Shown: in pieces, positions 7,125-39,414 of the stretch
How the letters are laid out: each line of letters opens with the position of its first letter
Position numbering within the stretch: the stretch's first letter is position 1
Origin: Candidatus Woesearchaeota archaeon
GTDB taxonomy: Archaea > Nanobdellota > Nanobdellia > Woesearchaeales > WJKL01
NCBI GenBank assembly: GCA_019322435.1
Contig: JAHWIR010000008.1
Location: 21,647 to 85,646, forward strand
Length of the DNA: 64,000 nucleotides
Direction: 5' to 3'
Made by a program: the position numbers and the translations under genes
The notes under the pieces: generated by a model
The model's database searches: none
What the model was told of the DNA's origin: nothing
The model's input: only the letters and a program-made list of their open reading frames with translations

Positions 7125-7562
7125 ATGGCAAATAAATCAAGAGGATTAGGGTCAGTAAGAAGATTGAAGAAAAGAAGCAGATCTAATAGATGGCATTCTA
7201 GTAAATATACAAAGAGGACGCTTGGGTTGAAGAAAAAGGCTGATCCATTGGAAGGAAGTTCTCAGGCAAAGGGCATTGTTCTTGAGAAGGTTCAATTGGA
7301 GGCAAAACAGCCAAACTCTGCTATGAGGAAGTGTGTCAGAGTGCAGCTTATCAAGAATGGAAAGCAAGTCACTGCTTTTGCTCCTGGTGACGGAGCTACT
7401 AAGCTGATTGATGAGCACGATGAGGTTGTTATTGAGTGTATTGGCGGGAAGATGGGCAGAGCAAAAGGAGATATTCCAGGAGTAAGATGGTGTGTCAAGA
7501 AAGTTAATGATCAAAGCTTGAATGCATTACTAAGGGGAAAGATAGAGAAGGCTAGAAAATGA
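7125..7562 (+). CDS. rps12: 30S ribosomal protein S12 (uS12)
   Basis: Conserved [13 protein letters not shown]...GDGA core. Confidence 0.92.
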
Positions 7563-7608
7563 AATTTTTAAATAAAAATTTCAGTGTTAAAATCGGAGAT
7601 TTGAACAA

Positions 7609-8202
7609 ATGATTAAAGCATTTGACAGATGGGATACAGGAGATATCAAGATTAAAGATAAGGGTTTAATAGAATATATTGTTGTTGAACCAAAGATTGT
7701 TCCTAGGACAGGAGCAAGATATGCTGGAGAAAGATTCCACAAATCCAAAGTTTTTATTATTGAGAGACTGATGAATAAAGTGATGGTTCCAGGGCATAAA
7801 AGCAAGAAACATTTCAGAAGTTCAGGACATATCACTGGAAAAGCTGGAAATGCATACAAGATTGTTGAAAAGGCTCTTTTAAAGATTGAAGCTTTGACAA
7901 AAGAGAATCCAATAAAAGTATTTGTCCAGGCTCTGGAGAATGCTGCTCCAAGAGAAGAGATAATCACAATCGAATACGGAGGAGCAAGGTATCCAAAAGC
8001 AGTTGAGTGCGCTCCACAGAGAAGGATAGATATTGCATTGAGATATTTCTGCCAAGGTGCTTATCAAAAATCTTTTAATTCTAAGAAAGCAATTGAAGAT
8101 GCTCTTGCTGATGAGATAATGAATGCTTACAAGTTAAGCAATAATTCTGCAGCTATTTCTAAAAAGCTTGAGTTAGAAAGACAGGCTGACGCTTCTCGTT
8201 AG
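7609..8202 (+). CDS. rps7: 30S ribosomal protein S7 (uS7)
   Basis: The 197-aa protein sits in the str-operon position after S12 and has a uS7-like sequence. Confidence 0.9.
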   Translation: MIKAFDRWDTGDIKIKDKGLIEYIVVEPKIVPRTGARYAGERFHKSKVFIIERLMNKVMVPGHKSKKHFRSSGHITGKAGNAYKIVEKALLKIEALTKENPIKVFVQALENAAPREEIITIEYGGARYPKAVECAPQRRIDIALRYFCQGAYQKSFNSKKAIEDALADEIMNAYKLSNNSAAISKKLELERQADASR

Positions 8203-8245: not shown

Positions 8246-8872
8246 TTATCCAATCACCACTATATGGTATGTTTTTATTTCTTTGTTGTCTTCATCAATT
8301 CCTGGATAATAAAACACTTCTTTGAACTTTTCAAATGAAATTTTGAGGTTTTCACCTAAATAAGAATCATTGCATATAAAATTAGATTCATCAAAACCTT
8401 TTATCAATATAAAATGTCCTTTGTATCCGCTTCCCCTAGTGAGTATGTTTCGATTAATAACTGCAATCACAAGCTTTTTTTGTTCAATCTGTGATTTGAT
8501 GAAATCAAGTGTTACTTCTCTTTTTTCAAATAGATTATTCTTCAAAACAAAATCAACGCTGGAGTCATAATGTTCTACGTCTACCTCTTCTCTAGGTCCT
8601 CCAACTTTTTTTAGTTCTTCTTCATCATTACCTATCTTCTTTAGGTCTTCGCTACTATGATATTTAGAGTTAATCCCAAATGAAGATAATAATTCAACAA
8701 TATACATCTCAAAGAACCACTTTCCTTTTTTGTATCTCATTCTCTTATAAAGCTCTGAAAAAGATACATCTATATCAAAGAACTTCAATATCATCATCAC
8801 AGTTGGTGGTCCTTGACATGAAGCGTATTCTTCTTTTTTGTCTCCTATAAAAGGAACATTTTTGATAATCAT
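8246..8872 (-). CDS. Papain-like cysteine peptidase, C39-like (Peptidase_C39_2/BtrH-like) domain protein
   Basis: A candidate nucleophile Cys sits in the ASCQGPPTVMMIL context and a candidate catalytic His downstream in GHFILIKGFDE. The gene is last in the minus-strand enzyme operon, separated from the preceding gene by a 95-bp gap. Confidence 0.45.
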   Translation of the reverse strand: MIIKNVPFIGDKKEEYASCQGPPTVMMILKFFDIDVSFSELYKRMRYKKGKWFFEMYIVELLSSFGINSKYHSSEDLKKIGNDEEELKKVGGPREEVDVEHYDSSVDFVLKNNLFEKREVTLDFIKSQIEQKKLVIAVINRNILTRGSGYKGHFILIKGFDESNFICNDSYLGENLKISFEKFKEVFYYPGIDEDNKEIKTYHIVVIG

Positions 8873-8967
8873 ATTAAGAATTATTTTTATTGAGTATATA
8901 AACCTATTTGTATTGTTAATTTTCTTCTATCCTTTTGAGAAAAAACTGAAGATTTATTTGCCATCTT

Positions 8968-10170
8968 TTACCTCAATAAATATTCTTTGGCTATTGGGTG
9001 GCTTAAGAAATTGTTTGCACCCATACTTGAACCATATGCTCCTGACTGATGTACTACAACCAAATCCCCAATATTAGCATTTTTAATCTGGATATCTTTA
9101 GCAAGAATATCTGCAGATAAACATAATGGTCCACCAATATCTATAATTTCGTTCCTTACGGAGGGTTGTCCAGGATGGAGTAATGGTTTTTTCATAGAAA
9201 TTATCTCTACTGGGTGGTTTGTTTCAGTTGCACATGGTCTTCTCTGATGATTGATTCCACCTGCTGTAATGATGTGCTTTTTGCCTTTAGACTCTTTTAT
9301 GTCTAATATTTCAGTAACATAATAACCAGATTCACCAACTATATATCTGCCTAATTCAAGAATTAATTCTTTGTTTTCATATCCTTGTTTTGATATTAGC
9401 TCAGACATGTTTTTTCCTAAAGATACTATATCCAAACTTCTTCCTTCGCCTTTATAATCTATTCCAAAACCACCACCAAGATCGATAATAGGTATGCCCT
9501 CTCCCTTATTTTCTAATCTATTAACCATCCCAAAAATATAATTAAAATAATCTAGAATGATTTCATGATCAAGCACCCCATTTCCAGCAAATACGTGTAT
9601 CCCTTGGAGGGAGATTCCTTCTAGATTAGATATTAATGCAGTTTGTTCTTCTATTCCCTTTTCATCTATTCCAAATTTAGAGGAAAAACCAGACATCAAA
9701 ATATGTGCTTTTTCTGGAGAATAATCAATATTAACTCTTACTAACACATCTACTGGGTGATTTGTAGTTTTTTTAACTATTTCTTTGATTCTTATTGCTT
9801 CAATATAAGACTCAACATTTATTTGTCTAATTCCCTCTTCAATATAGCGTTGAAGTTCATATCTATTCTTTCCAGGGCCTGTTGCAATTATTTCTTTAGG
9901 TTCAAAGAATTCTAAGGCTTTCTCCAGTTCTCCAGCAGAGGATACCTCAATACCATTAACTTTTTGAGATTTTTTCAGGTGGCACAATATTTCCTTATTA
10001 GGGTTAGCTTTCATGGCATAATACAAAGCAACATTTTCAGGAAGATTCTCCTTTAAACCAGAAAGTTGGGTATTGATTTTATCCATAGAATATAAATAAA
10101 AATAAGGCTCTCTATCAAAATCTGCGCTTCTTACAAGTTCTAATATCTTTCTCAATATATTGCTGTTCAT
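8968..10170 (-). CDS. PLP-dependent decarboxylase, Orn/DAP/Arg decarboxylase family (alanine-racemase-like fold III); LysA-like
   Basis: Motifs include YAMKANP with the PLP-binding Lys, a GGGFGIDY glycine-rich loop, an EPGR-like ELGRYIVGESG segment and a CLSAD segment. The 4-nt start overlaps the upstream gene. Confidence 0.8.
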   Translation of the reverse strand: MNSNILRKILELVRSADFDREPYFYLYSMDKINTQLSGLKENLPENVALYYAMKANPNKEILCHLKKSQKVNGIEVSSAGELEKALEFFEPKEIIATGPGKNRYELQRYIEEGIRQINVESYIEAIRIKEIVKKTTNHPVDVLVRVNIDYSPEKAHILMSGFSSKFGIDEKGIEEQTALISNLEGISLQGIHVFAGNGVLDHEIILDYFNYIFGMVNRLENKGEGIPIIDLGGGFGIDYKGEGRSLDIVSLGKNMSELISKQGYENKELILELGRYIVGESGYYVTEILDIKESKGKKHIITAGGINHQRRPCATETNHPVEIISMKKPLLHPGQPSVRNEIIDIGGPLCLSADILAKDIQIKNANIGDLVVVHQSGAYGSSMGANNFLSHPIAKEYLLR

Positions 10171-11387
10171 TTTAAGGAGTCTAAGACATTTCTAAGATTT
10201 AATGTAAATTTTGTAGGATCCATTGACATTGTAGTCCTAAACCAAAGCTCTTCTTCTTTTGTTTGAAATATGTGTCCTGGAGTAATACCTATATTTGTAG
10301 TTTCTAAAATATACTCAAACAATTCATGGGCATTCCCTATACCCTTTCTCCCTGCGTAATCTTTATTTATCTTTAAAAAGAATATATTGCCTGCTTCGGG
10401 TAGACATACTTTTTCAACAACTGGATGATTTTGACATAACTCCAGAGATGAGTTTACTCCTTGCTTAATTTTATTAAAAAAACTATCGAGTTCTTCAGAA
10501 TATTGTAAAGCTTCTGGAGATGTGGCTCCTACATCCATACTTGCTCTCAATCTCATCTCGGCTTTCATTATTTCATCTATTGTTTTTGAAACACAAAAAC
10601 CGGCGACCTCAGATGCTAAATTAAGGCTTTTTACAATGGAGGGGTCTCTAGAAATACTCCAGCCAATTCTAAAATCATTCATATGAGGTCGATCTTTACT
10701 TGGGCCTTTTATCTTTATCAATTTAGAGTAGTTTGATGTTGAAAAGAAATTGTGGCTTCTTGGATTTCTTGTTGCTTCTTCAAAGATAGCATCTAAAACA
10801 ACCACAATACCTGAGGATTCTGCTAAATTAATTACATCTTCCAATGTATTTTGATTAATATAGCTACAACATGGGTTTCCAGGAGATGTGAGAAATATAC
10901 ATGAGGTTTTCTCTGTTATGCAATTTTGAATATCTTTTACATTTGGTTGGAATCTGTTTTCAAAGTAAGTAGAGGTCAATACTGGCTTTAGACCATTATA
11001 AATTACTCCCCTTTCTATCTCTGGATATGCTGGTATTGGAATAATAATTTCATTTTTACCATTATTTTCAGATTCTTTCTTTAAATATCGGAAAATACTA
11101 TCAAAAGAACCAGTTACACCACCAGAATTTACAACTATATCTTCCTTAGAAAAGCCAGTTCCTTCATAATTAGATTCATGCAAGGCTACTAATTCTCTTA
11201 AAGAATAAGACCCTGCAGGATCATCATAACCTAACTCAACTTTGCCAGATTTTAATCTATCAAATGCGTCTTTTATGCAAGTCATAATAGGATATGATTC
11301 CATCCTAAAATTAGATGCATCTAATAGGACTGCTCCTTTTCTTTCTGCAATTTCAAAATAAGTTGACATGTCTGAAATTTTAATCAT
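10167..11387 (-). CDS. Class I/II (fold-type I) PLP aminotransferase; DapL/aspartate-aminotransferase-like
   Basis: LTSPGNPC and VVLDAIF motifs are present, together with SKDRPHMNDFRIGW, which carries the PLP-Lys followed by the conserved Arg-Gly. The protein is 406 aa. Confidence 0.75.
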   Translation of the reverse strand: MIKISDMSTYFEIAERKGAVLLDASNFRMESYPIMTCIKDAFDRLKSGKVELGYDDPAGSYSLRELVALHESNYEGTGFSKEDIVVNSGGVTGSFDSIFRYLKKESENNGKNEIIIPIPAYPEIERGVIYNGLKPVLTSTYFENRFQPNVKDIQNCITEKTSCIFLTSPGNPCCSYINQNTLEDVINLAESSGIVVVLDAIFEEATRNPRSHNFFSTSNYSKLIKIKGPSKDRPHMNDFRIGWSISRDPSIVKSLNLASEVAGFCVSKTIDEIMKAEMRLRASMDVGATSPEALQYSEELDSFFNKIKQGVNSSLELCQNHPVVEKVCLPEAGNIFFLKINKDYAGRKGIGNAHELFEYILETTNIGITPGHIFQTKEEELWFRTTMSMDPTKFTLNLRNVLDSLK

Positions 11388-12327
11388 CCTCCTTTGCTGG
11401 CTGTTTTTTATTTCTTGTAGCAGCTATTATAGGGATATTGCCTCCGCTATCTAATAAGTTTCTTTCATTTTTTCTAAATTTAGATGATAAAAATTCGAAA
11501 ATAAGATTGACTATATGGATACCAGTAACATTATTTGAATCAAATGAAGAGTTATACTCTACAAAATCTATGCCTTTTACATCTCCCTTCTTTCCTAGGT
11601 CGCAAATCAACCTTCTCGCAATACTATAATCAATGCCTGCTGGTTCTGGATAATTTGTCGCTGGTGCAATACTTGGATCTAAAACATCTATATCAAAAGA
11701 TAAATAAATTGGTTCATTTTCTTTAATCTTATCTAATAATGAAGCTGGACCTTTATCTTTCAGCTCAGTAGATGTTATCACTGTATTTTGATCTTTAATG
11801 GAATCTTCAATCCCTGGACCTGTATTGAGATTTCCACGCAGACCACAATGAATTACCTTTTGTACATTAGGTAATTTACTAACATACCTCATTACAGAGC
11901 CATTTGGAAAATTAGGTTCATTAAGATAATCACTATGGGCATCTAATTGAACTACAGTAATCTCGTTTTCATATGCAGACACTGCTGGAAAAGTTATATA
12001 ATGATCTCCTCCTAAAATAAGAGGAAAGCTATTTGAATCTAATATCTTTTTAATTTCCTTCTTTATTGTTTCTTCAATGGGTCTTGAACTAACATCTATA
12101 TTTCCAGTATCATTAAAAGTGATTCCATCTAAGATATATCCTCTTTCAGGATTATACATTTTTATAGGCTGTGCATTACCGTCTATATTAGAATATCTTT
12201 CACTAAGTTTTCTTAATGCGTCTGGACTTTTTTCTAAATTGGATCCTATCCCTACCACAGATACTATCTCACTGCATTTAGACCTATCTTTTAGATATGG
12301 CTGATTCAAGAAAGTTGGCTTAATCAT
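11380..12327 (-). CDS. Arginase/agmatinase/formiminoglutamase-family ureohydrolase
   Basis: The binuclear-Mn motifs GGDHYITFP, DAHSD and SFDIDVLDPS are present. The start is assigned to the internal ATG (MIKPTFL), which has a GAGGT Shine-Dalgarno sequence 7 nt upstream. The ORF track extends instead to an upstream GTG at 12351. Confidence 0.8.
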   Translation of the reverse strand: MIKPTFLNQPYLKDRSKCSEIVSVVGIGSNLEKSPDALRKLSERYSNIDGNAQPIKMYNPERGYILDGITFNDTGNIDVSSRPIEETIKKEIKKILDSNSFPLILGGDHYITFPAVSAYENEITVVQLDAHSDYLNEPNFPNGSVMRYVSKLPNVQKVIHCGLRGNLNTGPGIEDSIKDQNTVITSTELKDKGPASLLDKIKENEPIYLSFDIDVLDPSIAPATNYPEPAGIDYSIARRLICDLGKKGDVKGIDFVEYNSSFDSNNVTGIHIVNLIFEFLSSKFRKNERNLLDSGGNIPIIAATRNKKQPAKEDD

Positions 12328-12343
12328 TTTTACCTCTGAAATT

Positions 12344-13453
12344 TTAATCACCCTCCCCTATTGATTGATTTTTGTTATCCGCAGTAGCTATTAAAACAAT
12401 TATATCGTCCTCTTTTTTGATATTTCCTAATTCCTCTAAAGAAGCGTAAACCGATCTTGAAGAAAATTCTAAGTCAGGAAGTTCTTGTTCATGAGTTGCT
12501 TCTATTTGCTGATCTGTAACAGAAACCGCCACTCCTTTTGTTTTACTTAAAATATCCATTATTTTAAAGAAATTAAAGCAGGTATCTGATGCAATTGCTT
12601 CAGCTTTAGATTCTATTGGGTTCTCAATCACTACAATATCCATCCTATTTTCGATAGTATAGCCTTGTGTAATTGGGTCTGCTCCTTGTATTTGGACTGT
12701 CACAAATTTTGGCATTTTATCAGTCAGACCCATGTCTACCAAATCATTAAACCCATAATATTGAGCAACAATATTGCCACCACTACCTACAGGGATAACA
12801 ACCAAATCTGGAATATCCTGCATTTGAAGGAATATTTCATAAGCAATGGTCTTAAGTCCTTGTGAATAAGGAAGATTAGTAACAGGAAAACCATTATAGA
12901 CTGAATCATCAGATCCACAGAATTCGAAAAAATGTTCATAACTTCTAATTAAGTCTTGATCATATATTACTTCAGATTGTTTTTCTAATTTTTCTTTTTT
13001 TGGTGTGGGGGTGTCTTCAGGAACAAATACTATTGACTCTAATCCTGCTTTGCTTGCATAATATCCTAGAGATATTGCTGCGTTTCCTGTTGAAGGGATT
13101 GCTATTCTATTTTTTCCTGAGCTTAAAGCGTCAGAAACAAGCATAACCATTCCTCTATCTTTAAAACTTTGGGTTGGATTTTTCCCCTCATCTTTTAAGT
13201 AAATACCTTCCCGTAATTTCAATAAGGGCGTGCTTCCTTCTTCATCAGTAATTTTATCTACTATATCAAAAGGGATGCAATTCTTAAATCTCTTAATACC
13301 TTTTTCATCTGAGGTTAATGATTGTGGCAAAGTGTATGATGGAGTCCAAATATTCATTGGAACGCCACCAATAGACAATTCTGGATGCTTGTGTTCATTA
13401 GGATTGTTTGCCCTAAAGCTACAAACATCACAAGATAGATAATCTATTTTCAT
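12344..13453 (-). CDS. Threonine-synthase-like PLP enzyme (fold-type II, Trp-synthase-beta superfamily)
   Basis: The hallmark KDEGKNPTQSFKDRG PLP-lysine motif is present, and the 369-aa protein carries N-terminal CDVC cysteines. Confidence 0.8.
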   Translation of the reverse strand: MKIDYLSCDVCSFRANNPNEHKHPELSIGGVPMNIWTPSYTLPQSLTSDEKGIKRFKNCIPFDIVDKITDEEGSTPLLKLREGIYLKDEGKNPTQSFKDRGMVMLVSDALSSGKNRIAIPSTGNAAISLGYYASKAGLESIVFVPEDTPTPKKEKLEKQSEVIYDQDLIRSYEHFFEFCGSDDSVYNGFPVTNLPYSQGLKTIAYEIFLQMQDIPDLVVIPVGSGGNIVAQYYGFNDLVDMGLTDKMPKFVTVQIQGADPITQGYTIENRMDIVVIENPIESKAEAIASDTCFNFFKIMDILSKTKGVAVSVTDQQIEATHEQELPDLEFSSRSVYASLEELGNIKKEDDIIVLIATADNKNQSIGEGD

Positions 13454-13454
13454 T

Positions 13455-14630
13455 TTATTCTCTTATTAAATCCATTATTCTTTGAGATATTCTTCTTGAA
13501 TCTTTAATTGTAATTGCTGAATTCCAAATCGGTGAGCAATATTCACATTCTTGTTCATCATACAAAATATTGGCATTGTAAGTTTTATTGAATTCTTTTA
13601 TTGCATTGATTATTCTTTCATTGCAATTAGCACAGTTTCCTGAAGTTGTATGTGGGAATAATTCATTTCTTTCAATTCCTGGAGCAACTCCCTGGCTTCC
13701 GCTTAATATTTCTTCATCAAAATAACCACCAAGTCTTAAGTCTCTACCTGCTCCTAATTCCTTAGTTACTCCTCTAACAACTTCTATAACGCTCCACAAC
13801 CAAGGAACCCTATATGATCCTATTTGATATAGATAATCTGCGAGTGAATGTGCTTGTAAAGAAGTTGGCTCAATAGATACTGCATCAGAGCCATTATTGA
13901 AAGCGAATATTGAGGTTTCTACAGCATCATCTATTGCTTCTTTTTCAGTTAAAAAAGGCGGTTTTTGATTTACATAAGTTAAGGCCCTGAAATCATAGTC
14001 GTGCAGTGTTCTAATTGCTTCTAGATAAACATCTAAATTAGGCATATTTTTATGATGACATAGCTCTCTTATATCCGGGTTAGTAGATTCGAGTCCAATG
14101 CCTACTTCAATCAGACCTTTATTCACGCTTTTTATGTTCTCAATAACTTCTGGAGTTACATATTCTGCTCTAGATTCTATGATTGTTTTTTTAATTCCTA
14201 GCAAGGAGTCAATTGAAGAAAATATTTCTTTCATTGCTTCAATTGGAACCTCTTCTGGATTAAGAAAACTTCCCAGATTATATAAGCAAAGAACAGGATA
14301 ATCGTTAATGTCAAAATCAAGATTCCTTTCTATTGAGCTTCCATCAATTACGCTTTTCCATTGAGTAATATACTCTTCTGTAGTTACTGGGGTATCTGTT
14401 GTTCCTTCATAATGCCCGCATGTTGAGCAGCCTTGATTTAATCCATAATGACTGCATCCTGTGGATCTTAGAACAACCATAATCCTATCTATTGTTTTGT
14501 TCTCAAACCAAAATTTATTTATCTCAACTTCGGCAGGTTTGTTATGATCATATTTTCTAGGGGGTGATTGTTTTCTTAATTCTTTTAGCTTTTTTTCCAC
14601 AAGCTCCAAAGCTGTCTTGAATTCATCCAT
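13455..14630 (-). CDS. Fe-S / radical-SAM-like protein with atypical cysteine triad
   Basis: The protein has CSHYGLNQGCSTCGH (CX8CX2C, not the canonical CX3CX2C) near the N-terminus of a TIM-barrel-like region. It also has a C-terminal CANC...CEYC cluster. The assignment is tentative. Confidence 0.4.
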   Translation of the reverse strand: MDEFKTALELVEKKLKELRKQSPPRKYDHNKPAEVEINKFWFENKTIDRIMVVLRSTGCSHYGLNQGCSTCGHYEGTTDTPVTTEEYITQWKSVIDGSSIERNLDFDINDYPVLCLYNLGSFLNPEEVPIEAMKEIFSSIDSLLGIKKTIIESRAEYVTPEVIENIKSVNKGLIEVGIGLESTNPDIRELCHHKNMPNLDVYLEAIRTLHDYDFRALTYVNQKPPFLTEKEAIDDAVETSIFAFNNGSDAVSIEPTSLQAHSLADYLYQIGSYRVPWLWSVIEVVRGVTKELGAGRDLRLGGYFDEEILSGSQGVAPGIERNELFPHTTSGNCANCNERIINAIKEFNKTYNANILYDEQECEYCSPIWNSAITIKDSRRISQRIMDLIRE

Positions 14631-16008
14631 CCTGATCTCCTTGTATTCTGTTTAATAGAGAGATTATGGGCCTATATTTGTCTCCTGTATCTATTGGTGT
14701 TTCTTTAACCAAATGAACATTGACTTCCATATCTCTTGGGATTAATTGATATAGGCTTTCTTTTATTCTCCCTTTTTGAGCAGGACTTAGACCAAATCTA
14801 CCTTTAACTATAAATAAATCTAAGTCTCCTTTTGTATTTTGAACAAGCTGGTATTTCAACCCATGAATAGGAACATCTAATTCCAAATACCAATTATAAG
14901 CCACATCCATAAAACTGCCCGCAGGTATTATTTCTTTATCATTTACAACAATGGAATCCATATATCTCCCTTGAGGAGAATCTATAACCCTAAAATTACT
15001 TCCACAATCGCAGTTATTTGTTCTTTGTATAGATCCAATGTCTCCTTGTGAATAACGTATAATTGGCGTGGCTTCGTTTAGCAAATTTGTACCTATAACA
15101 AGGCCTCTTTTTCCATTTTCTACTACATTTGTTGTTTCTGGATCAACAACTTCAACATAACAAGCGTCTTCTTCCAAGTGATACTTTCTACTTGTACATT
15201 CAAGAGCGATTCTTGTGAGCTCTTCACTACTGAACTCATCCAGTACATTAACCTTAAAGAAATCAGAAAGTTCTTTTCTTTCAGCTTCTGTTGACTGTTC
15301 TGAATGTATAACAATCAGTTCAACCCCTGAATTTTCAAGATTACATCTTCTTCCCATGATTCTTTTCAAATAAGTGGGATAAGTGGATAGCACCTTGGGT
15401 CTTAATTTTTCTATTGTCTTAACAGCTTCCTCGACAGGGATAGTGGTGGGGGAAAATTCTGTAGGATATTCCCCATCAATTGAAGATACCCACCAAGGAC
15501 TTGTATAGATAAACAGAGCTAAATCTGTTGGATTATAATTGCCACCACTTTGAAAATAGAATTGCCTTGCTCCTTGAAGTGTGTCCATGTAAATAGCCTC
15601 AGAAGATACAGCAATAGTAACAAATTTTCCGGTTGATCCTGAACTTCTTGTAGTAAATTCTGTGCTGTGTTTTTTACTGATTGTTTTTTCAGGGAACCCG
15701 CTTATCAGTTCCTCCTTGGTCAATATAGGCAGTTTTTGAAAATCTTTCCATGTCTTAATGTCTTCTGGTTCAAAACCAACAGAAGAATATTTTTCTTTGT
15801 AAAGATCAACTGTCTCAAAAGCATGTTTAACTAATTCCTGGATTCTTTTAAATTGGAGATCTTTAATTTTCTCTAATGGTTGCTTATAGAAATCTCTTAT
15901 TTTTTCCCATCTAAGATTCATTATTCTTCGAAGTTGGGCATGGTCTCTTTCAGTTTCTTTTCTCTTATTGCTTGTTCCTAAATTTAAGTAGATTGATTCA
16001 CTAGTCAT
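14623..16008 (-). CDS. Adenylate-forming enzyme, phenylacetate-CoA ligase (PaaK)/coenzyme F390 synthetase/CapK family
   Basis: The P-loop-like SSGSTGKFVTIA matches the TSGSTGKP AMP-binding motif. The 461-aa length and overall pattern fit the family. Confidence 0.75.
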   Translation of the reverse strand: MTSESIYLNLGTSNKRKETERDHAQLRRIMNLRWEKIRDFYKQPLEKIKDLQFKRIQELVKHAFETVDLYKEKYSSVGFEPEDIKTWKDFQKLPILTKEELISGFPEKTISKKHSTEFTTRSSGSTGKFVTIAVSSEAIYMDTLQGARQFYFQSGGNYNPTDLALFIYTSPWWVSSIDGEYPTEFSPTTIPVEEAVKTIEKLRPKVLSTYPTYLKRIMGRRCNLENSGVELIVIHSEQSTEAERKELSDFFKVNVLDEFSSEELTRIALECTSRKYHLEEDACYVEVVDPETTNVVENGKRGLVIGTNLLNEATPIIRYSQGDIGSIQRTNNCDCGSNFRVIDSPQGRYMDSIVVNDKEIIPAGSFMDVAYNWYLELDVPIHGLKYQLVQNTKGDLDLFIVKGRFGLSPAQKGRIKESLYQLIPRDMEVNVHLVKETPIDTGDKYRPIISLLNRIQGDQDG

Positions 16009-16925
16009 TTTAGATTCACTTTATCTCCATCATTAAGCACATAATCCCTCCCAACCATTTCTCCGTCATGGGTTGTTGAACTTCCAAAGATTTTAGCACC
16101 TTTAATTTTGTCTTTACCTAGACCTATTTTTTTTGCAAAATCTCCTACTGTTACTTCTTGGTTTCTGGGAAATATTAAAGGATCGCCATCTACCTGGCCA
16201 TTTTTGAAACAGTATACCCTCCTGATATTTAGTAATCTATATATTTCATCTCCGATGTCAGTAGGAGAAGATATGTCCACTACATTATATTCTTCATAAT
16301 CAAATTTAGACCATGCAGCCACAAAAGAGGGTTTTTCTATGATATCCTCTTTTGATCTGTATTTATGCTTCTTAGACTCAGAAACATTTCCGGAGATTAT
16401 TATAAGATAATCTTCAAGAGTAGAGATAACAGAACTCAGCTCTTTTTTATCTCTTACAGCAACACAAATAACATCGGAATTTCTTATGAACTGAATTTTA
16501 TTTTTATCATTATCTCCCCCATATAAAGAAGGCACTTCTGCTATTTGTATAGGAACGTCGTTGTATACAAAAATGCCTGCTTCTGGTTTGTATGTAGTAA
16601 AAGGTGCATCAGATATCTTTGGATTTGAATTTGTCAGCATTTGCATTAAGGTACTTTTACCAGAATTTGCTTCACCTACAATTGCAACTTGCCTGTTATA
16701 TTTTATTGAACTGTAAATATTTTGGGGTGGTTGTTTTTTCTTAGAAGATGTTTTCTTTTTTAAGACATCTAATTCTTTTTTGAATTTTGTTCTCAATTCT
16801 AAGTCTCTGGAATCTTTTGGGTTAAGTACGACTAATTCTTCTAATAATCTTATTCTTTCTTGTTCTGTGCTTACATGATTGAGTTTTTGTTTTTTTAGTC
16901 TAAATGCTATATTCTGGTTTTTCAT
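16005..16925 (-). CDS. Divergent Obg/DRG-family GTPase with C-terminal TGS domain
   Basis: G1 is IVGEANSGKSTL and G2 is DAPFTT. The G3 position reads IAEVPSL, a degenerate form of DxxG. The C-terminus (TVGDFAKKIGLG...DGDKVNL) resembles a TGS domain. Confidence 0.65.
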   Translation of the reverse strand: MKNQNIAFRLKKQKLNHVSTEQERIRLLEELVVLNPKDSRDLELRTKFKKELDVLKKKTSSKKKQPPQNIYSSIKYNRQVAIVGEANSGKSTLMQMLTNSNPKISDAPFTTYKPEAGIFVYNDVPIQIAEVPSLYGGDNDKNKIQFIRNSDVICVAVRDKKELSSVISTLEDYLIIISGNVSESKKHKYRSKEDIIEKPSFVAAWSKFDYEEYNVVDISSPTDIGDEIYRLLNIRRVYCFKNGQVDGDPLIFPRNQEVTVGDFAKKIGLGKDKIKGAKIFGSSTTHDGEMVGRDYVLNDGDKVNLK

Positions 16926-16987: not shown

Positions 16988-17719
16988 TTACTCAGCCATC
17001 TTCCACAGCATCTCGAAAAAAGCTCTGTAACTATCTGCTACTTCTTTTGATGTTATCAAGAAGACTATTGGGAGTTTTTTAAGGACTAGGATTCCAACGT
17101 GATTTGCATAGATGTCGACTGCTGCTGGTGTTTTCATGTTTTTTGGCATGTATTTTACTTTTGTTAATGGCAAGCTGGAATAGAATTTTCCTGTGGTTTT
17201 TGCATCTGCATTGAAGATCATTCTCATTTTTATGCCTTTTTTGATTCTTCTTCTTGTGTATTGCTTGAAATAAGTCTTTGCCATGAAGGATTCATCCTGG
17301 CCTCTGGCTCCAAACACCAAAATTTCATCTCCTTTTTTTAGTGTTGCAACAATATTATCATAAACATTCCTTACTCCTTTGTAGCCTTCGTAGGTTGTTG
17401 CTTTTTCTTCTGGAAGATGCTCTTTTTCAATTGCTTTTAATCTTGGGATTATTTCCTGGATCTCTCTTTTTTCTTGTTCTAAGAGATTTAAAAGAGTATT
17501 TGGGTCTGCTGCTGAGAAATGTTTTCTGTTTGCTTTTAGATGGAAACTTACCAGTCCTTTTTCTATCAGTTTGTTCAAGGATTCGTATACTCTTGATGTA
17601 TGCAAGCCAGATTTGTGAGTTAGGGGGCCTGTTGTTGTGGTGCCTAATTCTAGCAAAGAAAGATAAATTATTATCTCATTCTTTGTAAGGCCTAGTTTTT
17701 CAAGTATTGGCTGCTCCAT
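16988..17719 (-). CDS. TrmB-family transcriptional regulator (wHTH + C-terminal effector domain)
   Basis: The N-terminal LTKNEIIIYLSLLELGTTTTGPLTHKSGLHTSRVYESLNKLIEKGLV segment is a TrmB-type HTH. The 243-aa length matches the family. Confidence 0.75.
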   Translation of the reverse strand: MEQPILEKLGLTKNEIIIYLSLLELGTTTTGPLTHKSGLHTSRVYESLNKLIEKGLVSFHLKANRKHFSAADPNTLLNLLEQEKREIQEIIPRLKAIEKEHLPEEKATTYEGYKGVRNVYDNIVATLKKGDEILVFGARGQDESFMAKTYFKQYTRRRIKKGIKMRMIFNADAKTTGKFYSSLPLTKVKYMPKNMKTPAAVDIYANHVGILVLKKLPIVFLITSKEVADSYRAFFEMLWKMAE

Positions 17720-18036: not shown

Positions 18037-19002
18037 ATGGTTAAAAAGATTTTTTTTAAAGACCCTATCAGAGGGAATCAAGTTGTAAGCGGAAAGCGAT
18101 TGATTTCTGCTAGTAGAAATCTAGTAGACAGAATTTTAGATCTTGAATCTGATGAAGCATTAGTTATTCAAAGAGACAGAGATATTATTCCAGGTGAGTA
18201 TTCTGACTCAAAGAAGTTTATGAAACACGGCAAAGAAGTCAAGCCGAAGAGAACATATACTTTAAGAGAGATGGTAAAGCAGAGAAAGATTCCTGTTAAA
18301 ATAAGGGAAGAGGCATTTGAAACTATTAAAAATCCATATTTCTGCGGATATTCTTTTGTTCCAGCAGGAAGAGACAAAGTAAAGAGAAAAGTAAGCCTTG
18401 TTGCTTGTTTAGAAGGAAACAGGATATACTGCTATGCGCACCAGGTTAGATTCACTGGGATTGACGTAGGACAATATGATGATGCAAGAAGAGTAGAGAT
18501 AGAAGGGGCTACTGTTCCTGTAAGGGTTCCTTCAAGAACAAAAGGCCAGAGAAAACATGAATTTAATTTAAATTCTGTTGCAATAGAGGATACTCCAGAC
18601 AAGTATTCTATTGCTTATGAAATTGAATCTGAAGGGCATCTTTGCAAGCATAAGCAATACATGTTCAGGTATAGGCCAAAGAGGGGCCATGAAAAATCTA
18701 AGATTATAAATATATGCCCTCATGAGATTGCAGCTTATATGGAAGCTGTTGACATGTACTGGAATGAAGACAAGAATATTATTCCTCTGCAGATGTCCCA
18801 GTTTGTTGTTCCGACACAATTCTTTGTTGACCAGTATAAGAAGATCTGCAGGCAGATTGCGTTTGAGAAAGACGGCAATTTAAAGGTTCCAAACTTTGCT
18901 CAAAAGGAGATTTTGCTGTGGGCAATTGTTCAAAGAGAAGGACATGATAAAACCTGCTTTGCTTCAGAAGGAACAAAAGTTAGAAGATATAATTGGTCTT
19001 AA
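18037..19002 (+). CDS. Hypothetical protein (321 aa), no recognisable family
   Basis: It is a long ORF with coding-like composition and a T-rich tract downstream. Confidence 0.5.
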   Translation: MVKKIFFKDPIRGNQVVSGKRLISASRNLVDRILDLESDEALVIQRDRDIIPGEYSDSKKFMKHGKEVKPKRTYTLREMVKQRKIPVKIREEAFETIKNPYFCGYSFVPAGRDKVKRKVSLVACLEGNRIYCYAHQVRFTGIDVGQYDDARRVEIEGATVPVRVPSRTKGQRKHEFNLNSVAIEDTPDKYSIAYEIESEGHLCKHKQYMFRYRPKRGHEKSKIINICPHEIAAYMEAVDMYWNEDKNIIPLQMSQFVVPTQFFVDQYKKICRQIAFEKDGNLKVPNFAQKEILLWAIVQREGHDKTCFASEGTKVRRYNWS

Positions 19003-19043: not shown

Positions 19044-19688
19044 ATGGAGATGCTGTTTATTGAAGCCAAGAGCAAAGCTGATGTTAAGAAAGCTGTAGAG
19101 AAAGCTATGAAGTACTTACCCAAGAAAGTTGGAATAGTGACAACTGCTCAGCACAAGCATAAATTAAAAGAAGTTAAGAAGATATTAGAGGAAAAAGGAA
19201 TCAAAGCTGAGATTGGTGGACAAGTGTTGGGCTGCGATGCTTCTGCTGCTAAAAAGATAAAAGCAGATGTTATTTTATATGTTGGATCAGGAAGATTCCA
19301 TCCAATTGAAGTGCAGTTAGAGACAGGGAAAAAGGTTGTTATGGCAAATCCTTTGACAAATGAAGCAAAAGTGCTGGAGAAAGAGGAAGTTGAGAAATTA
19401 AAAAAACAGCAAAAAGGTGCTTTGATGAAGTTTTTGTCTTCTGATAATATAGGGATAATAGTCAGTACAAAGCCTGGGCAGGAAAAATTGAAAAAAGCAA
19501 TGGAATTAAAGAAAAGATTAAAAGATAAGAACTGCTATATATTCTTGGCTGACACTATAAACCCTGCTGAGTTTGAGAATTTTCCTTTTATCGAGTGCTG
19601 GGTCAATACTGCATGTCCGAGATTTGCAGATGGTAAAAAAGGTGTTGTGAATTATGGGATTGTGGAAAAAACTGTCAAAAAAGGCTAA
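19044..19688 (+). CDS. Dph2-like protein (2-(3-amino-3-carboxypropyl)histidine synthase family), unusually short
   Basis: VGSGRFHPIE resembles the GDGRFH motif of Dph1/Dph2. Several conserved Cys are present (GCDASAA, CWVNTACPR). The protein is only 214 aa, against about 330 aa for typical archaeal Dph2. Confidence 0.45.
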   Translation: MEMLFIEAKSKADVKKAVEKAMKYLPKKVGIVTTAQHKHKLKEVKKILEEKGIKAEIGGQVLGCDASAAKKIKADVILYVGSGRFHPIEVQLETGKKVVMANPLTNEAKVLEKEEVEKLKKQQKGALMKFLSSDNIGIIVSTKPGQEKLKKAMELKKRLKDKNCYIFLADTINPAEFENFPFIECWVNTACPRFADGKKGVVNYGIVEKTVKKG

Positions 19689-19784: not shown

Positions 19785-20468
19785 ATGAAGAAAGAGAAAT
19801 ATTTTGATAAATGGGCTGAAACATATTCAAGAGGAGAATATCCTTTGTTTGAACAGTGGAATATTGATAAATTGTTTGAGCAGATTGAGTTAAAAGATGA
19901 TGATGTTGTGCTAGATCTTGGAACTGGGAATGGAAAACTGCTTAGAGAAGTTGGTAAAAGAGATTTTGCATGCAGATTAATTGGTATTGATTTTTCAAAA
20001 GAGATGTTAGATGAAGCCAGGGAAAAACTAAAACAAGAGAATTTAAATGCTCAATTAATCCAAAGAACATTACCTGATATTGGTTTAAAGAAAGAATCTG
20101 TAGATTATGTGATAAGCAATATTGCATTGCATCATGTTAAAGATAAAAAGAAACTGTATTCTGCGATTTATAATGTGTTGAAGAAAGGAGGAAAATTAGT
20201 TTATGTTGATTCTCATGACAAACCAGATGAGTGGTTTGATAAAGCAAAAAAAGAATGGTTAAAGAAAGAAGAAAAGTTTGCTAAAGCTTATAAGAAAAGT
20301 GCTGATGATACATGGCAAGAAATTCCAGCAGAGATAAGAGAAAAACATCCTCCTGAGTATCATATAACAACAGAAGAGGCAAGGGAATTTTTAAGAGAAG
20401 CTGGATTTAAGAATATTGAGATAATACCAAGCCCTTCTTATTTTATAGTTGTTAAAGCAGAAAAATGA
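19785..20468 (+). CDS. Class I SAM-dependent methyltransferase
   Basis: Motif I is VLDLGTGNG and the post-I acidic residue is GIDFS. An LKKGGKLV segment follows. Confidence 0.8.
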   Translation: MKKEKYFDKWAETYSRGEYPLFEQWNIDKLFEQIELKDDDVVLDLGTGNGKLLREVGKRDFACRLIGIDFSKEMLDEAREKLKQENLNAQLIQRTLPDIGLKKESVDYVISNIALHHVKDKKKLYSAIYNVLKKGGKLVYVDSHDKPDEWFDKAKKEWLKKEEKFAKAYKKSADDTWQEIPAEIREKHPPEYHITTEEAREFLREAGFKNIEIIPSPSYFIVVKAEK

Positions 20469-39413: not shown

Positions 39414-39414
39414 A

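What the first reader, a model, noticed from the sequence alone, without database searches (positions are those of the whole stretch)
13455..14630. Fe-S protein with non-canonical CX8CX2C motif in place of the radical-SAM CX3CX2C
The only N-terminal cysteine cluster reads C-SHYGLNQG-C-ST-C. The protein also has a C-terminal CANC...(21 aa)...CEYC cluster. It lies between an adenylating enzyme and a ThrC-like enzyme. If this is a radical-SAM-type enzyme it uses an unusual cluster-binding spacing. Alternatively it is a different Fe-S or Zn enzyme class.
Basis: seen in the sequence. Interest (0 to 1): 0.5.

Follow-up and report, generated by a model that had tools for sequence, protein, structure and literature searches.

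The report
RaSEA-like radical SAM enzyme in conserved operon
The odd cysteine spacing is real but normal for this enzyme's family (the archaeosine radical-SAM enzyme RaSEA); what is new is that this copy belongs to an uncharacterised, very conserved subfamily that always sits behind an adenylating ligase, in a gene cluster shared by tiny archaea, candidate-phyla bacteria and gut Firmicutes and linked to ribosome-binding factors.

Summary
The ORF at 13455-14630 (minus strand, 391 aa) does carry C59-X8-C68-X2-C71 and a C-terminal CX2C...CX2C. The gap between the C-terminal pairs is 25 residues, not 21.

The long spacing is a family trait. Bona fide RaSEA has CX9CX2C, other relatives have mostly CX7-9, and none of those scored has CX3. 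The motif itself is therefore not novel.

The gene is not an archaeosine gene. It belongs to a tight subfamily in which all 120 homologues have CX8CX2C. The subfamily occurs in DPANN archaea, CPR bacteria and gut Clostridia/Bacilli. A PaaK-like ligase lies immediately upstream in 37 of 38 loci, where RaSEA would have ArcS. A ThrC-like enzyme, an aminotransferase, an arginase-family enzyme and a decarboxylase usually accompany it.

An ABC-F protein of the ribosomal-protection-like class lies nearby in 31 of 38 loci. Woesearchaeota-type loci, including this window, instead carry a cluster-specific DRG-like GTPase.

Best reading: a horizontally spread biosynthetic cluster for a small, probably translation-targeting metabolite, in which this enzyme performs radical C-N bond scission. 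That function is inferred, not shown.

The parts
13455..14630 (-). RaSEA-like radical SAM enzyme (391 aa), the finding itself
14418..14456 (-). C59-X8-C68-X2-C71, the predicted ligands of the radical SAM [4Fe-4S] cluster
   Evidence: Translation gives CSHYGLNQGCSTC. Invariant in 120/120 close homologues. Aligned with the RaSEA cluster cysteines.
13536..13634 (-). C333-X2-C336 ... (25 aa) ... C362-X2-C365, a second metal site (Zn or auxiliary Fe-S, undecided)
   Evidence: Translation. Invariant. Close family has NCxxC...CxxC in 119/120. Distant relatives have NCxxC...CxC in 101 and CxxC in 5. High pLDDT in this region.
14623..16008 (-). PaaK-like adenylate-forming ligase (461 aa), the obligate upstream partner
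   Evidence: NCBIfam PaaK models E 1e-36 but far below cut-offs. PDB relatives are PaaK, AjiA1 and PaaK-like amide ligases. Immediately upstream on the same strand in 37/38 non-redundant loci. Its homologues sit on the same contigs as the RaSEA-like homologues. Identities of the two proteins to the window copies co-vary across loci, Pearson r 0.80.
16005..16925 (-). DRG/Rbg-like ribosome-binding GTPase with TGS domain (306 aa), first gene of the operon
   Evidence: Pfam MMR_HSR1 + TGS. Nearest solved structures are yeast Rbg2/Rbg1. pI 9.2. The family is tiny, about 22 close members, and the gene is again the first gene before PaaK-like/RaSEA-like/ThrC-like in L052 and L053. It also occurs in L006 and L011.
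12344..13453 (-). ThrC-like fold-type II PLP enzyme (369 aa)
   Evidence: Pfam PALP 8.5e-41. Threonine synthase models below cut-off. PDB relatives are threonine synthases. Present in 26/38 loci.
11380..12351 (-). Arginase-family ureohydrolase (323 aa)
   Evidence: Pfam Arginase 1.9e-48. Nearest PDB entries are agmatinase, guanidinobutyrase and proclavaminate amidinohydrolase. The GGDH, DAHSD and SFDIDVLDP metal motifs can be read in the translation. Present in 21/38 loci.
10167..11387 (-). Class I/II aminotransferase-fold PLP enzyme (406 aa)
   Evidence: Pfam Aminotran_1_2 3.6e-30. Best NCBIfam hit is GntC, 108 bits, below cut-off. Present in 20/38 loci.
8968..10170 (-). Orn/DAP/Arg-type PLP decarboxylase (400 aa)
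   Evidence: Pfam hits. Nearest solved structures are 6knh and BtrK, an L-glutamyl-[ACP] decarboxylase, ahead of true DAP decarboxylases. Present in 20/38 loci.
8246..8872 (-). Peptidase_C39-like papain-fold protein (208 aa), a cluster neighbour in archaeal loci
   Evidence: Pfam PF13529 1.2e-8. The same family lies next to the cluster in L003, L005, L007, L009 and L052.
16988..17719 (-). TrmB-type HTH regulator directly upstream of the operon; membership not shown
   Evidence: Pfam TrmB 2.8e-14. Not conserved next to the cluster in other loci.

Best explanation
The ORF encodes a radical SAM enzyme of the RaSEA/TIGR01210 branch. C59, C68 and C71 hold the SAM-cleaving [4Fe-4S] cluster on a long CX8CX2C loop that is typical of this branch. 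C333/C336/C362/C365 form a second, probably structural, metal site. It is not the archaeosine enzyme. It belongs to a separate, strongly conserved subfamily that works with the PaaK-like ligase encoded just upstream, where RaSEA works with ArcS. The pair is the constant core of a horizontally spread gene cluster. Inferred mechanism: the ligase uses ATP to join a carboxylate to an amine donor built or trimmed by the accessory enzymes (ThrC-like, aminotransferase, decarboxylase, ureohydrolase). The radical SAM enzyme then abstracts a hydrogen atom and cleaves an N-C(alkyl) bond. RaSEA does this on preQ0-lysine, MnmL/YhcC on cmnm5U and queuine lyase on queuine, each time leaving the nitrogen on the product. 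The product is most likely a small amino-acid-derived metabolite with guanidino or amidino chemistry that acts on translation. The producer would then be protected by the linked ABC-F protein in bacteria, or by the cluster-specific DRG-like GTPase in Woesearchaeota such as this one. Shown: the fold, the family, the motif conservation, the partnership and the cluster composition. Inferred: the reaction, the product and the target.
For: Radical SAM identity rests. The spacing is a family trait, with RaSEA representatives at CX9 and relatives mostly at CX7-9. The subfamily is distinct. Its score is below the TIGR01210 cut-off. In a library clustered at 50% identity the whole subfamily collapses to one full-length representative (534 bits), and the next full-length relative scores 234 bits. 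It carries two subfamily-specific inserts, including an invariant SGSQG...RNE.FP loop, and CxxC instead of CxC at the C-terminus. The partner differs: PaaK-like is immediately upstream in 37/38 loci, usually with overlapping or near-abutting reading frames. As a positive control, true RaSEA in Heimdallarchaeota loci L044 and L045 sits directly behind an ArcS-like gene; in L046 only a fragment of the RaSEA gene is held, at the end of the contig. The taxonomic range includes Clostridia, Bacilli and CPR bacteria, which as far as I know do not make tRNA archaeosine. The subfamily is acidic (median pI 5.7; window protein 4.9), whereas RaSEA representatives have pI 7.1-9.1, which argues against an RNA substrate. 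The cluster looks biosynthetic. There are two accessory sets around the same core: type A has ThrC-like, aminotransferase, arginase-like and decarboxylase; type B has a second radical SAM, ATP-grasp, ArgE/DapE-like, GNAT and ADI/DDAH-like. The decarboxylase is nearest to BtrK and 6knh, and the ligase is related to PaaK-like amide ligases. Related RaSEA-like genes sit inside an obvious FAS/PKS-type cluster on B. thuringiensis plasmids and next to a B12 radical SAM and a carbamoyltransferase. For the translation link, an ABC-F lies within 10 kb in 31/38 loci, in varied positions and orientations. Of the cluster-linked ABC-F proteins tested, 11 of 12 pass NCBIfam NF000355 'ribosomal protection-like ABC-F' (436-468 bits against 380) and none reaches a housekeeping ABC-F cut-off. 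A bleomycin-resistance-like VOC protein occurs in 17 loci and a GNAT in 9. The DRG-like GTPase is specific to the cluster. The C-N scission analogy rests on the RaSEA reaction (PMC11298593), the YhcC/MnmL reaction (bioRxiv 10.64898/2026.05.18.725915) and queuine lyase being the best structural match at 21% identity.
Against: No product, substrate or activity is known, and the reaction is an analogy. The closest characterised relatives (RaSEA, MnmL, Elp3, queuine lyase) all act on tRNA or on a tRNA-derived base, not in secondary metabolism. The window itself has no ABC-F, VOC protein or exporter. NF000355 is a broad model, and adjacency to an ABC-F does not prove resistance. Hosts with very small genomes (DPANN, CPR, and Bacilli MAGs such as Candidatus Coprovivens and Onthoplasma, which I take from general knowledge to be small-genome lineages) are not typical antibiotic producers. 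PaaK-like and RaSEA-like identities correlate by Pearson (r 0.80) but only weakly by rank (Spearman 0.28, p 0.10). I found no literature on the cluster, so nothing independent supports the functional reading.
Confidence: 0.55

Rival explanations
1. The cluster installs a new modification on the translation machinery itself (tRNA, rRNA, EF-P/aIF5A or another factor). The PaaK-like enzyme would activate or attach a group, the RaSEA-like enzyme would trim it, and the PLP and ureohydrolase enzymes would make the donor amine. The ABC-F or DRG-like factor would be a functional partner rather than a resistance protein.
For: All the nearest characterised relatives are tRNA-modification enzymes: RaSEA, MnmL/YtqA, Elp3, and queuine lyase, which acts on a tRNA-derived base. 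Every linked non-enzyme gene is a ribosome-binding factor, either an ABC-F or an Rbg/DRG-like GTPase. In the window the operon abuts S12-S7, and in L052 it abuts aEF-2 and ribosomal protein genes. From general knowledge, ABC-F and DRG proteins relieve ribosome stalling.
Against: The RaSEA-like and PaaK-like proteins are acidic (pI 4.9 and 5.6; subfamily median 5.7) while RaSEA representatives are neutral to basic. No RNA-binding domain such as PUA or THUMP was found. The accessory genes include bleomycin-resistance-like VOC, GNAT, M20 and C39-like peptidases and ATP-grasp ligases, and two interchangeable accessory sets surround the same core. That pattern is typical of small-molecule pathways. 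Transfer between archaea and bacteria of a system aimed at a specific macromolecular site is harder to explain.
Confidence: 0.15
2. The operon is a primary-metabolic route, for example an alternative diamine, polyamine or non-standard amino-acid pathway. In that case ThrC-like gamma- or beta-replacement, decarboxylation and ureohydrolase steps would resemble carboxyaminopropylagmatine-type routes. The ABC-F or GTPase neighbourhood would be incidental.
For: A decarboxylase, an agmatinase-like ureohydrolase and an aminotransferase are classic polyamine and amino-acid enzymes. The hosts are mostly uncultured organisms known only from metagenome-assembled genomes, several of them DPANN and CPR lineages, which I understand from general knowledge to have reduced genomes that mostly keep essential functions. 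The operon's GC content (0.32-0.35) is close to that of the rest of the window, so there is no sign of recent acquisition.
Against: The constant core is PaaK-like plus RaSEA-like, not the polyamine-type enzymes, which are missing from 11 type-B loci and from several archaeal loci. ABC-F linkage recurs in different arrangements across phyla. VOC and GNAT resistance-type genes recur. The distribution is patchy across domains at more than 50% identity, unlike a housekeeping pathway.
Confidence: 0.12
3. It is simply the Woesearchaeota orthologue of RaSEA and makes archaeosine in tRNA.
For: The best family hit is TIGR01210 RaSEA at E 2.3e-57. Some databases label homologues 'archaeosine synthase beta-subunit'.
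Against: The score is below the equivalog cut-off, 194.6 against 212.15, and the subfamily representative P0032 scores only 170.9. There is no ArcS-like gene nearby and a PaaK-like gene sits there instead in 37/38 loci, whereas true RaSEA follows ArcS in L044 and L045. Most carriers are bacteria. The pI is acidic. The subfamily has its own inserts and a CxxC variant.
Confidence: 0.03
4. It is not a radical SAM enzyme but another Zn or Fe-S protein class.
For: The spacing is non-canonical, there is no literal GGE, and the Pfam score only just reaches threshold.
Confidence: 0.01

Closest known systems
RaSEA (radical SAM enzyme for archaeosine formation; archaeosine synthase beta subunit; NCBIfam TIGR01210)
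   Same: Homologous over residues 48-377 (E 2.3e-57). Both have a long-spacer C-Xn-C-X2-C cluster motif, CX9 in RaSEA and CX8 here. Both have the same seven aligned cysteines, including the C-terminal NCxxC...C(x)xC pair. Both are encoded directly behind a partner enzyme that presumably prepares the substrate.
   Different: The score is below the equivalog cut-off. The partner is a PaaK-like adenylating ligase, not ArcS. The subfamily occurs mostly in bacteria. It is acidic rather than neutral to basic. It has two subfamily-specific inserts and CxxC instead of CxC. It sits among small-molecule enzymes and has no tRNA-guanine transglycosylase-type neighbour.
Queuine lyase (PDB 6p78, Clostridium spiroforme)
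   Different: Only 229 residues, lacking the N-terminal extension and the C-terminal four-cysteine module. It is a salvage enzyme acting on a free base and has no adenylating partner.
MnmL / YtqA / YhcC (NCBIfam TIGR01212)
   Same: It is the neighbouring radical SAM family of bona fide RaSEA proteins, which hit it at 32-46 bits. YhcC/MnmL is required to convert cmnm5s2U to nm5s2U, i.e. removal of an N-alkyl group (bioRxiv 10.64898/2026.05.18.725915).
   Different: The window protein itself does not reach significance against TIGR01212. MnmL acts on tRNA and has a positively charged cleft.
Elp3 radical SAM domain
   Same: Best Foldseek match: 8ptx_C E 7.5e-8, plus 6qk7, 8asw, 6iad and 5l7j. From memory, not tested here, Elp3 also has a long first spacer in its cluster motif and a nearby Zn site. 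One relative of the present family (P0131) even carries a C-terminal GNAT domain as Elp3 does.
   Different: 11-15% identity. Elp3 has a fused acetyltransferase domain and modifies tRNA U34.
Antibiotic biosynthetic clusters that carry an ARE-type ABC-F for self-protection (OleB, CarA, SrmB, TlrC, LmrC, VarM; from general knowledge)
   Same: A conserved set of biosynthetic enzymes is physically linked to ABC-F proteins that score as 'ribosomal protection-like'. There are sometimes two copies, one of them OptrA-like, and other resistance-type genes (VOC, GNAT) occur as well.
   Different: There is no PKS or NRPS and no known product. The hosts are uncultured anaerobes and symbionts. In Woesearchaeota-type loci the ABC-F is replaced by a DRG-like GTPase, which as far as I know has no precedent as a resistance factor.

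Membership tests
Radical SAM superfamily | Three-cysteine motif that binds the SAM-cleaving [4Fe-4S] cluster | tested here: met
   C59-X8-C68-X2-C71 is invariant in 120/120 homologues and aligned with the RaSEA motif. The spacing differs from CX3CX2C but matches its own branch.
Radical SAM superfamily | Partial or full (beta/alpha) TIM-barrel core | tested here: met
Radical SAM superfamily | Pfam PF04055 at or above the gathering score | tested here: met
   29.6 bits against 29.5, only just, and only residues 141-216 are matched.
Radical SAM superfamily | GGE-type SAM amino-group binding motif after strand 2 | tested here: inconclusive
   There is no literal GGE. Y117-N118-L-G120-S121 at the end of strand 113-118 is invariant and conserved family-wide as N/S/T-x-G-S-F. 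The equivalence is positional inference only.
Radical SAM superfamily | Reductive cleavage of SAM to 5'-deoxyadenosine | not testable with these tools
   Needs anaerobic biochemistry.
RaSEA (TIGR01210 equivalog) | HMM score at or above the curated cut-off of 212.15 bits | tested here: not met
   194.6 bits for the window protein and 170.9 for subfamily representative P0032. True RaSEA representatives score 324-370.
RaSEA (TIGR01210 equivalog) | Genomic and functional pairing with ArcS (archaeosine synthase alpha subunit) | tested here: not met
   No ArcS-like gene lies in the operon, and a PaaK-like ligase is upstream in 37/38 loci. As a positive control, in L044 and L045 an ArcS-like gene (NF040592, 290 bits, scored for L044) directly precedes RaSEA; L046 holds only a fragment of the RaSEA gene at the contig end. 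The rest of the genome could not be inspected.
RaSEA (TIGR01210 equivalog) | Restricted to archaea that carry archaeosine at tRNA position 15 | tested here: not met
   The subfamily is found in Clostridia, Bacilli and CPR bacteria as well as DPANN archaea.
RaSEA (TIGR01210 equivalog) | Long-spacer cluster motif plus C-terminal NCxxC...CxC | tested here: inconclusive
   Same architecture and aligned cysteines, but CX8 instead of CX9 and CxxC instead of CxC.
RaSEA (TIGR01210 equivalog) | Converts preQ0-Lys15-tRNA to G+15 | not testable with these tools
   The reaction is described in PMC11298593.
Biosynthetic gene cluster with ABC-F self-resistance | Conserved co-located set of biosynthetic enzymes inherited as a unit | tested here: met
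   Seven reading frames are overlapping or abutting in the window. The PaaK-like/RaSEA-like core has two alternative accessory sets across 38 loci. Identities to the window proteins co-vary across loci: Pearson r 0.80 with PaaK-like and 0.91 with ThrC-like.
Biosynthetic gene cluster with ABC-F self-resistance | ARE-type ABC-F encoded in or next to the cluster | tested here: inconclusive
   Met in 31/38 loci, with 11 of 12 tested passing NF000355. Not met in the window, which has a DRG-like GTPase instead.
Biosynthetic gene cluster with ABC-F self-resistance | A bioactive product that targets the ribosome | not testable with these tools
   No product is known.

The most novel reading that the evidence does not exclude
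A compact gene cluster built around a RaSEA-like radical SAM enzyme and a PaaK-like ligase has moved between DPANN archaea, CPR bacteria and gut Firmicutes. It makes a so far unknown small molecule, probably bearing an amidine, guanidine or amide group, that targets the ribosome. Bacterial carriers protect themselves with ARE-type ABC-F proteins. Woesearchaeota carriers use a dedicated DRG/Rbg-like GTPase, which would be the first archaeal ribosome-protection factor of this kind. The enzyme pair would generalise the ArcS/RaSEA logic ('attach an amino-acid amine, then cut it off radically') from tRNA modification to metabolite biosynthesis.
Probability: 0.3. Interest if true: 0.8.

Novelty: new variant of a known kind. 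Interest (0 to 1): 0.55.

Why it matters
The motif alone does not matter, because it is how this branch of radical SAM enzymes is built. The context does matter. Only one TIGR01210-type enzyme, RaSEA, has a described function in the papers I could find. Yet a search of a library clustered at 50% identity finds 1333 cluster representatives of this family at E <= 0.001. They include fusions to TIR, GNAT and DDAH-like domains and members inside plasmid-borne biosynthetic clusters. The subfamily found here is exceptionally conserved, at more than 50% identity between archaea and Firmicutes. It is always paired with an adenylating ligase and is physically tied to ribosome-binding factors. If the biosynthetic reading holds, three things follow. 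It would point to a new translation-directed metabolite made by gut anaerobes and by ultra-small symbionts. It would give radical N-dealkylation a role in metabolite assembly. It would also suggest a new kind of archaeal ribosome protection. All of this is directly testable by expressing a six- or seven-gene operon.

Tried and rejected
- **PDB sequence search** with the protein: no hit even at E 1, so structure prediction was needed.
- **PADLOC defence-system models**: no hit for the RaSEA-like, PaaK-like, ThrC-like, C39-like or type-B enzymes. The ABC-F and GTPase gave only generic ATPase or GTPase hits. I dropped the defence-system reading.
- **Rfam**, on the whole window and on seven related loci: nothing but tRNAs, so no riboswitch such as a guanidine or SAM type points to a ligand.
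- **Phage collection**: no homologue.
- **Plasmid collection**: only distant relatives at 25-33% identity.
- **RiPP reading**: the window operon has overlapping or abutting genes and no room for a precursor peptide. No conserved small ORF family emerged. Rejected for type A. Type B loci do contain a SPASM radical SAM, so it is not fully excluded there.
- **Diphthamide amidation idea**, prompted by the Dph2 gene nearby and aEF-2 next to the cluster in L052: rejected because most carriers are bacteria, which to my knowledge lack diphthamide.
- **7-deazaguanine DNA or tRNA pathway**: no TGT/DpdA/QueC-E-type neighbours were seen among the neighbouring genes I annotated.
- **Literature**: 'TIGR01210' gave zero papers. 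Other term combinations gave nothing on this cluster. The original RaSEA paper (PMID 31740832) is not held, so its statements on the RaSEA clusters could not be checked.
- **AlphaFold database fold search**: not available.
- **C-terminal metal site**: model coordinates could not be read, so its geometry was not measured.
Full report
**Observation.** The ORF at 13455-14630 on the minus strand encodes 391 residues. Its cysteines are at 59, 68, 71, 115, 191, 333, 336, 362 and 365. The N-terminal cluster reads C-SHYGLNQG-C-ST-C, encoded at 14418-14456. The C-terminal cluster reads CANC-(25 residues)-CEYC, encoded at 13536-13634.

**The pattern is not chance.** In 30 homologues of 53-76% identity all seven motif cysteines are invariant. 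All 120 listed homologues have exactly G-C-X8-C-X2-C-x-H.

**What the protein is.**
- Pfam Radical_SAM only just reaches its threshold, 29.6 against 29.5 bits, over residues 141-216.
- NCBIfam gives a strong hit to TIGR01210, 'archaeosine biosynthesis radical SAM protein RaSEA'. The E-value is 2.3e-57 and the score 194.6 bits, below the curated 212.15.
- No solved structure is detectable by sequence.
- An AlphaFold2 model built on the 30-sequence alignment is confident (pLDDT 88.7, pTM 0.90) and shows an alternating strand/helix core.
- Foldseek against the PDB puts the Elp3 radical SAM domain and queuine lyase first. AprD4, TsrM, lysine 2,3-aminomutase and PFL-activating enzyme follow.

This is a radical SAM enzyme.

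**Is the spacing unusual?** Not for this family.
- Three representatives that score as true RaSEA (324-370 bits) carry CX9CX2C.
- Of the 90 distant TIGR01210-like representatives in which the motif could be located by pattern search, 24 have X7, 32 have X8 and 17 have X9, with outliers up to X19. None has X3. The few apparent X4-X6 values I inspected come from an extra cysteine inside the loop.
- A joint alignment puts C59, C68 and C71 in the same columns as the RaSEA cysteines.
- The C-terminal cysteines are also family-wide, with one twist. The close subfamily has NCxxC...CxxC in 119 of 120 members, while distant relatives nearly always have NCxxC...CxC.
- No GGE is present. The conserved N/S/T-x-G-S-F element at the end of the strand spanning 113-118 is the likely equivalent, but that is positional inference.

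**It is not the archaeosine enzyme.**
- The window comes from a Candidatus Woesearchaeota MAG, since the protein is 100% identical to KY332_02660. The window carries the archaeal rpoB, split rpoA, S12 and S7 genes.
- The protein belongs to a tight subfamily. In a library clustered at 50% identity the whole subfamily is one full-length representative at 534 bits. The next full-length relative drops to 234 bits, and 1333 cluster representatives match overall at E <= 0.001.
- Members occur in Woesearchaeota and Aenigmatarchaeota, in CPR Shapirobacteria and Microgenomates, and above all in gut Clostridia and Bacilli MAGs. To my knowledge these bacteria do not make tRNA archaeosine.
- In 37 of 38 non-redundant loci the gene directly upstream on the same strand is a PaaK-like adenylate-forming ligase, usually overlapping or within a few bases.
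- In Heimdallarchaeota loci L044 and L045, recovered in the same scan, a true RaSEA directly follows an ArcS-like gene, the canonical pair; L046 holds the ArcS-like gene and only a fragment of RaSEA at the contig end.
- PaaK-like homologues lie on the same contigs as RaSEA-like homologues and diverge in step with them. The Pearson correlation of identities is 0.80 and the rank correlation is weak.
- The subfamily is acidic, with median pI 5.7 and 4.9 for the window protein, against 7.1-9.1 for RaSEA representatives.
- It has two inserts of its own. One is an invariant SGSQG...RNE.FP loop that the model leaves disordered.

**The cluster.** In the window, seven genes from 16925 down to 8968 overlap or abut. 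In order they are:
1. a DRG/Rbg-like GTPase with a TGS domain;
2. the PaaK-like ligase;
3. the RaSEA-like enzyme;
4. a ThrC-like PLP enzyme;
5. an arginase-family ureohydrolase with intact metal motifs;
6. an aminotransferase-fold enzyme;
7. an Orn/DAP/Arg-type decarboxylase.

The decarboxylase's nearest solved relatives are 6knh and BtrK rather than true DAP decarboxylases. A C39-like peptidase follows.

Across loci two accessory sets surround the constant PaaK-like/RaSEA-like core:
- **Type A** has ThrC-like in 26 loci, arginase-like in 21, aminotransferase in 20 and decarboxylase in 20. It often also has a bleomycin-resistance-like VOC protein (17 loci), a Ddl-like ATP-grasp or a B12 radical SAM.
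- **Type B**, in Bacilli-type MAGs and Clostridium sp. CAG:440, has a second 'variant' radical SAM, an ATP-grasp, an ArgE/DapE-type deacylase, a GNAT, a SPASM radical SAM and, in three loci, an ADI/DDAH-like enzyme.

Guanidino-group enzymes thus recur in three independent forms: the arginase fold, the ADI/DDAH fold, and a RaSEA-like/DDAH-like fusion protein, P0140.

**Link to translation.**
- An ABC-F gene lies within 10 kb in 31 of 38 loci. It appears upstream, downstream, inside the operon or on the other strand, and Clostridia often carry a second, OptrA-like copy.
- Eleven of twelve tested copies pass NCBIfam NF000355, 'ribosomal protection-like ABC-F' (436-468 bits against 380). One of these is from an Aenigmatarchaeota contig. 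None reaches the cut-off of a housekeeping ABC-F model.
- The seven loci without an ABC-F are archaeal or truncated.
- The window instead has the GTPase. Its nearest solved relatives are the yeast ribosome-interacting GTPases Rbg2 and Rbg1, and its pI is 9.2.
- That GTPase family is tiny, about 22 close members. Where context could be read it is again tied to the cluster. It is the first gene before PaaK-like/RaSEA-like/ThrC-like in L052 and L053, and it is present in L006 and L011. Several more members share contig lengths with RaSEA-like homologues.

**Mechanism (inferred).**
- RaSEA converts the preQ0-lysine adduct made by ArcS into archaeosine and forms a complex with ArcS (PMC11298593). 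In effect it removes the lysine carbon skeleton and leaves its nitrogen behind.
- YhcC/MnmL is required for converting cmnm5s2U to nm5s2U.
- Queuine lyase, the best structural match, from general knowledge cuts the C-N bond of queuine.
- By analogy I propose the following. The PaaK-like ligase joins a carboxylate to an amine donor; relatives in the PDB include amide- and ester-forming PaaK-like ligases. The RaSEA-like enzyme then performs radical N-C(alkyl) scission.
- The PLP and ureohydrolase enzymes would make or unmask the building blocks.
- The resistance-type neighbours (ABC-F, VOC, GNAT) and the interchangeable accessory sets fit a small bioactive metabolite aimed at the ribosome.
- Related RaSEA-like genes inside an FAS/PKS-type cluster on B. 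thuringiensis plasmids, and next to a B12 radical SAM and a carbamoyltransferase, show that this enzyme family is used in metabolite pathways.

**Rivals.**
- A modification system for tRNA, rRNA or a translation factor remains possible. All characterised relatives act on tRNA or a tRNA base, and all linked factors bind ribosomes. The acidic enzymes, the absence of RNA-binding domains and the accessory gene types argue against it.
- A primary polyamine or amino-acid route is possible for the accessory enzymes. It does not explain the constant core or the ABC-F linkage.
- A plain RaSEA orthologue and a non-radical-SAM metalloprotein are both contradicted by tests run here.

**Checks that led nowhere.** No PADLOC, Rfam or phage signal was found. 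No paper describing this cluster was found.

**Verdict.** The gene is a new variant of a known kind. It is a RaSEA-like enzyme recruited, with a new partner, into a widely transferred and translation-linked cluster of unknown product. That makes it a good experimental target.

Noticed in passing
window 16005-16925 (-); also L006, L011, L052 9001-9954, L053 9001-9915: A small family (about 22 close members) of short DRG/Rbg-like GTPases with a TGS domain. Where context could be read, most members lie within or beside the PaaK-like/RaSEA-like cluster, as its first gene in the window, L052 and L053. They stand where bacterial loci have an ABC-F.
   Followed up: partly
P0153, P0156 (TIR), P0140 (DDAH-like), P0131 (GNAT), P0253 (tandem duplication), P0240 (ABC ATPase plus NMT1-like domain): Distant TIGR01210-like radical SAM proteins occur fused to TIR, DDAH/amidinotransferase-like and GNAT domains. 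The family is far more diverse than its single characterised member suggests.
   Followed up: partly
L051 (B. thuringiensis HD1002 plasmid 1, 8836-9993 of the locus); L050 (C. acetobutylicum pSOL1); L048: RaSEA-like genes at 26-33% identity sit in cultured Firmicutes plasmids. In B. thuringiensis the gene lies inside an adenylate-forming enzyme/ACP/KS/FabZ/FabG/AsnB/PPTase cluster with ABC exporters. In a metagenome contig the neighbours are a B12 radical SAM and a carbamoyltransferase.
   Followed up: partly
window 7125-8202 (+) and 8246-16925 (-); L052 14782-16959: The operon is inserted directly after the S12-S7 genes, where archaea usually continue with aEF-2 (general knowledge). No EF-2 was found among the larger window ORFs I annotated. 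In L052 the same cluster abuts aEF-2 and the L24e/S28e/L7Ae genes.
   Followed up: no
window 18037-19002 (+) and 19044-19688 (+): A 214-aa Dph2-like ORF matches only positions 64-270 of the 302-position diphthamide-synthesis profile. It is preceded by a 321-aa ORF with no Pfam hit. It may be a shortened or split Dph2.
   Followed up: no
window 39346-41526 (+): A single 726-aa ORF combines a PurQ-type glutamine amidotransferase domain (GATase_5) with a complete PurD (GARS N/A/C). It lies within a purine-biosynthesis gene group (PurL-like 36474-39413, PurM-like 41510-42640, PurT-like 33085-34383).
   Followed up: no
window 20465-21646 (+): A Peptidase_U32 family protein carries a C-terminal EF-Tu domain-2-like segment, just at the Pfam threshold.
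   Followed up: no
L054 7814-9462 and 1836-4308: In one Woesearchaeota contig the cluster-type GTPase is followed only by a 248-aa ORF instead of the full ligase/radical SAM pair, possibly a decayed cluster. A PvlArgDC/agmatinase/deoxyhypusine-synthase operon lies nearby.
   Followed up: no
whole window: GC skew follows the coding strand strongly. It is about +0.2 to +0.4 where genes are on the plus strand and -0.11 to -0.16 across the minus-strand operon. GC content is 0.32-0.42, and the operon does not stand out from its surroundings.
   Followed up: no
L003 5612-7216: An Aenigmatarchaeota contig carries an ABC-F that passes the 'ribosomal protection-like' model (436.5 bits) right next to the cluster. 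From general knowledge, ABC-F proteins are not expected in archaea, which suggests it was transferred together with the cluster.
   Followed up: partly
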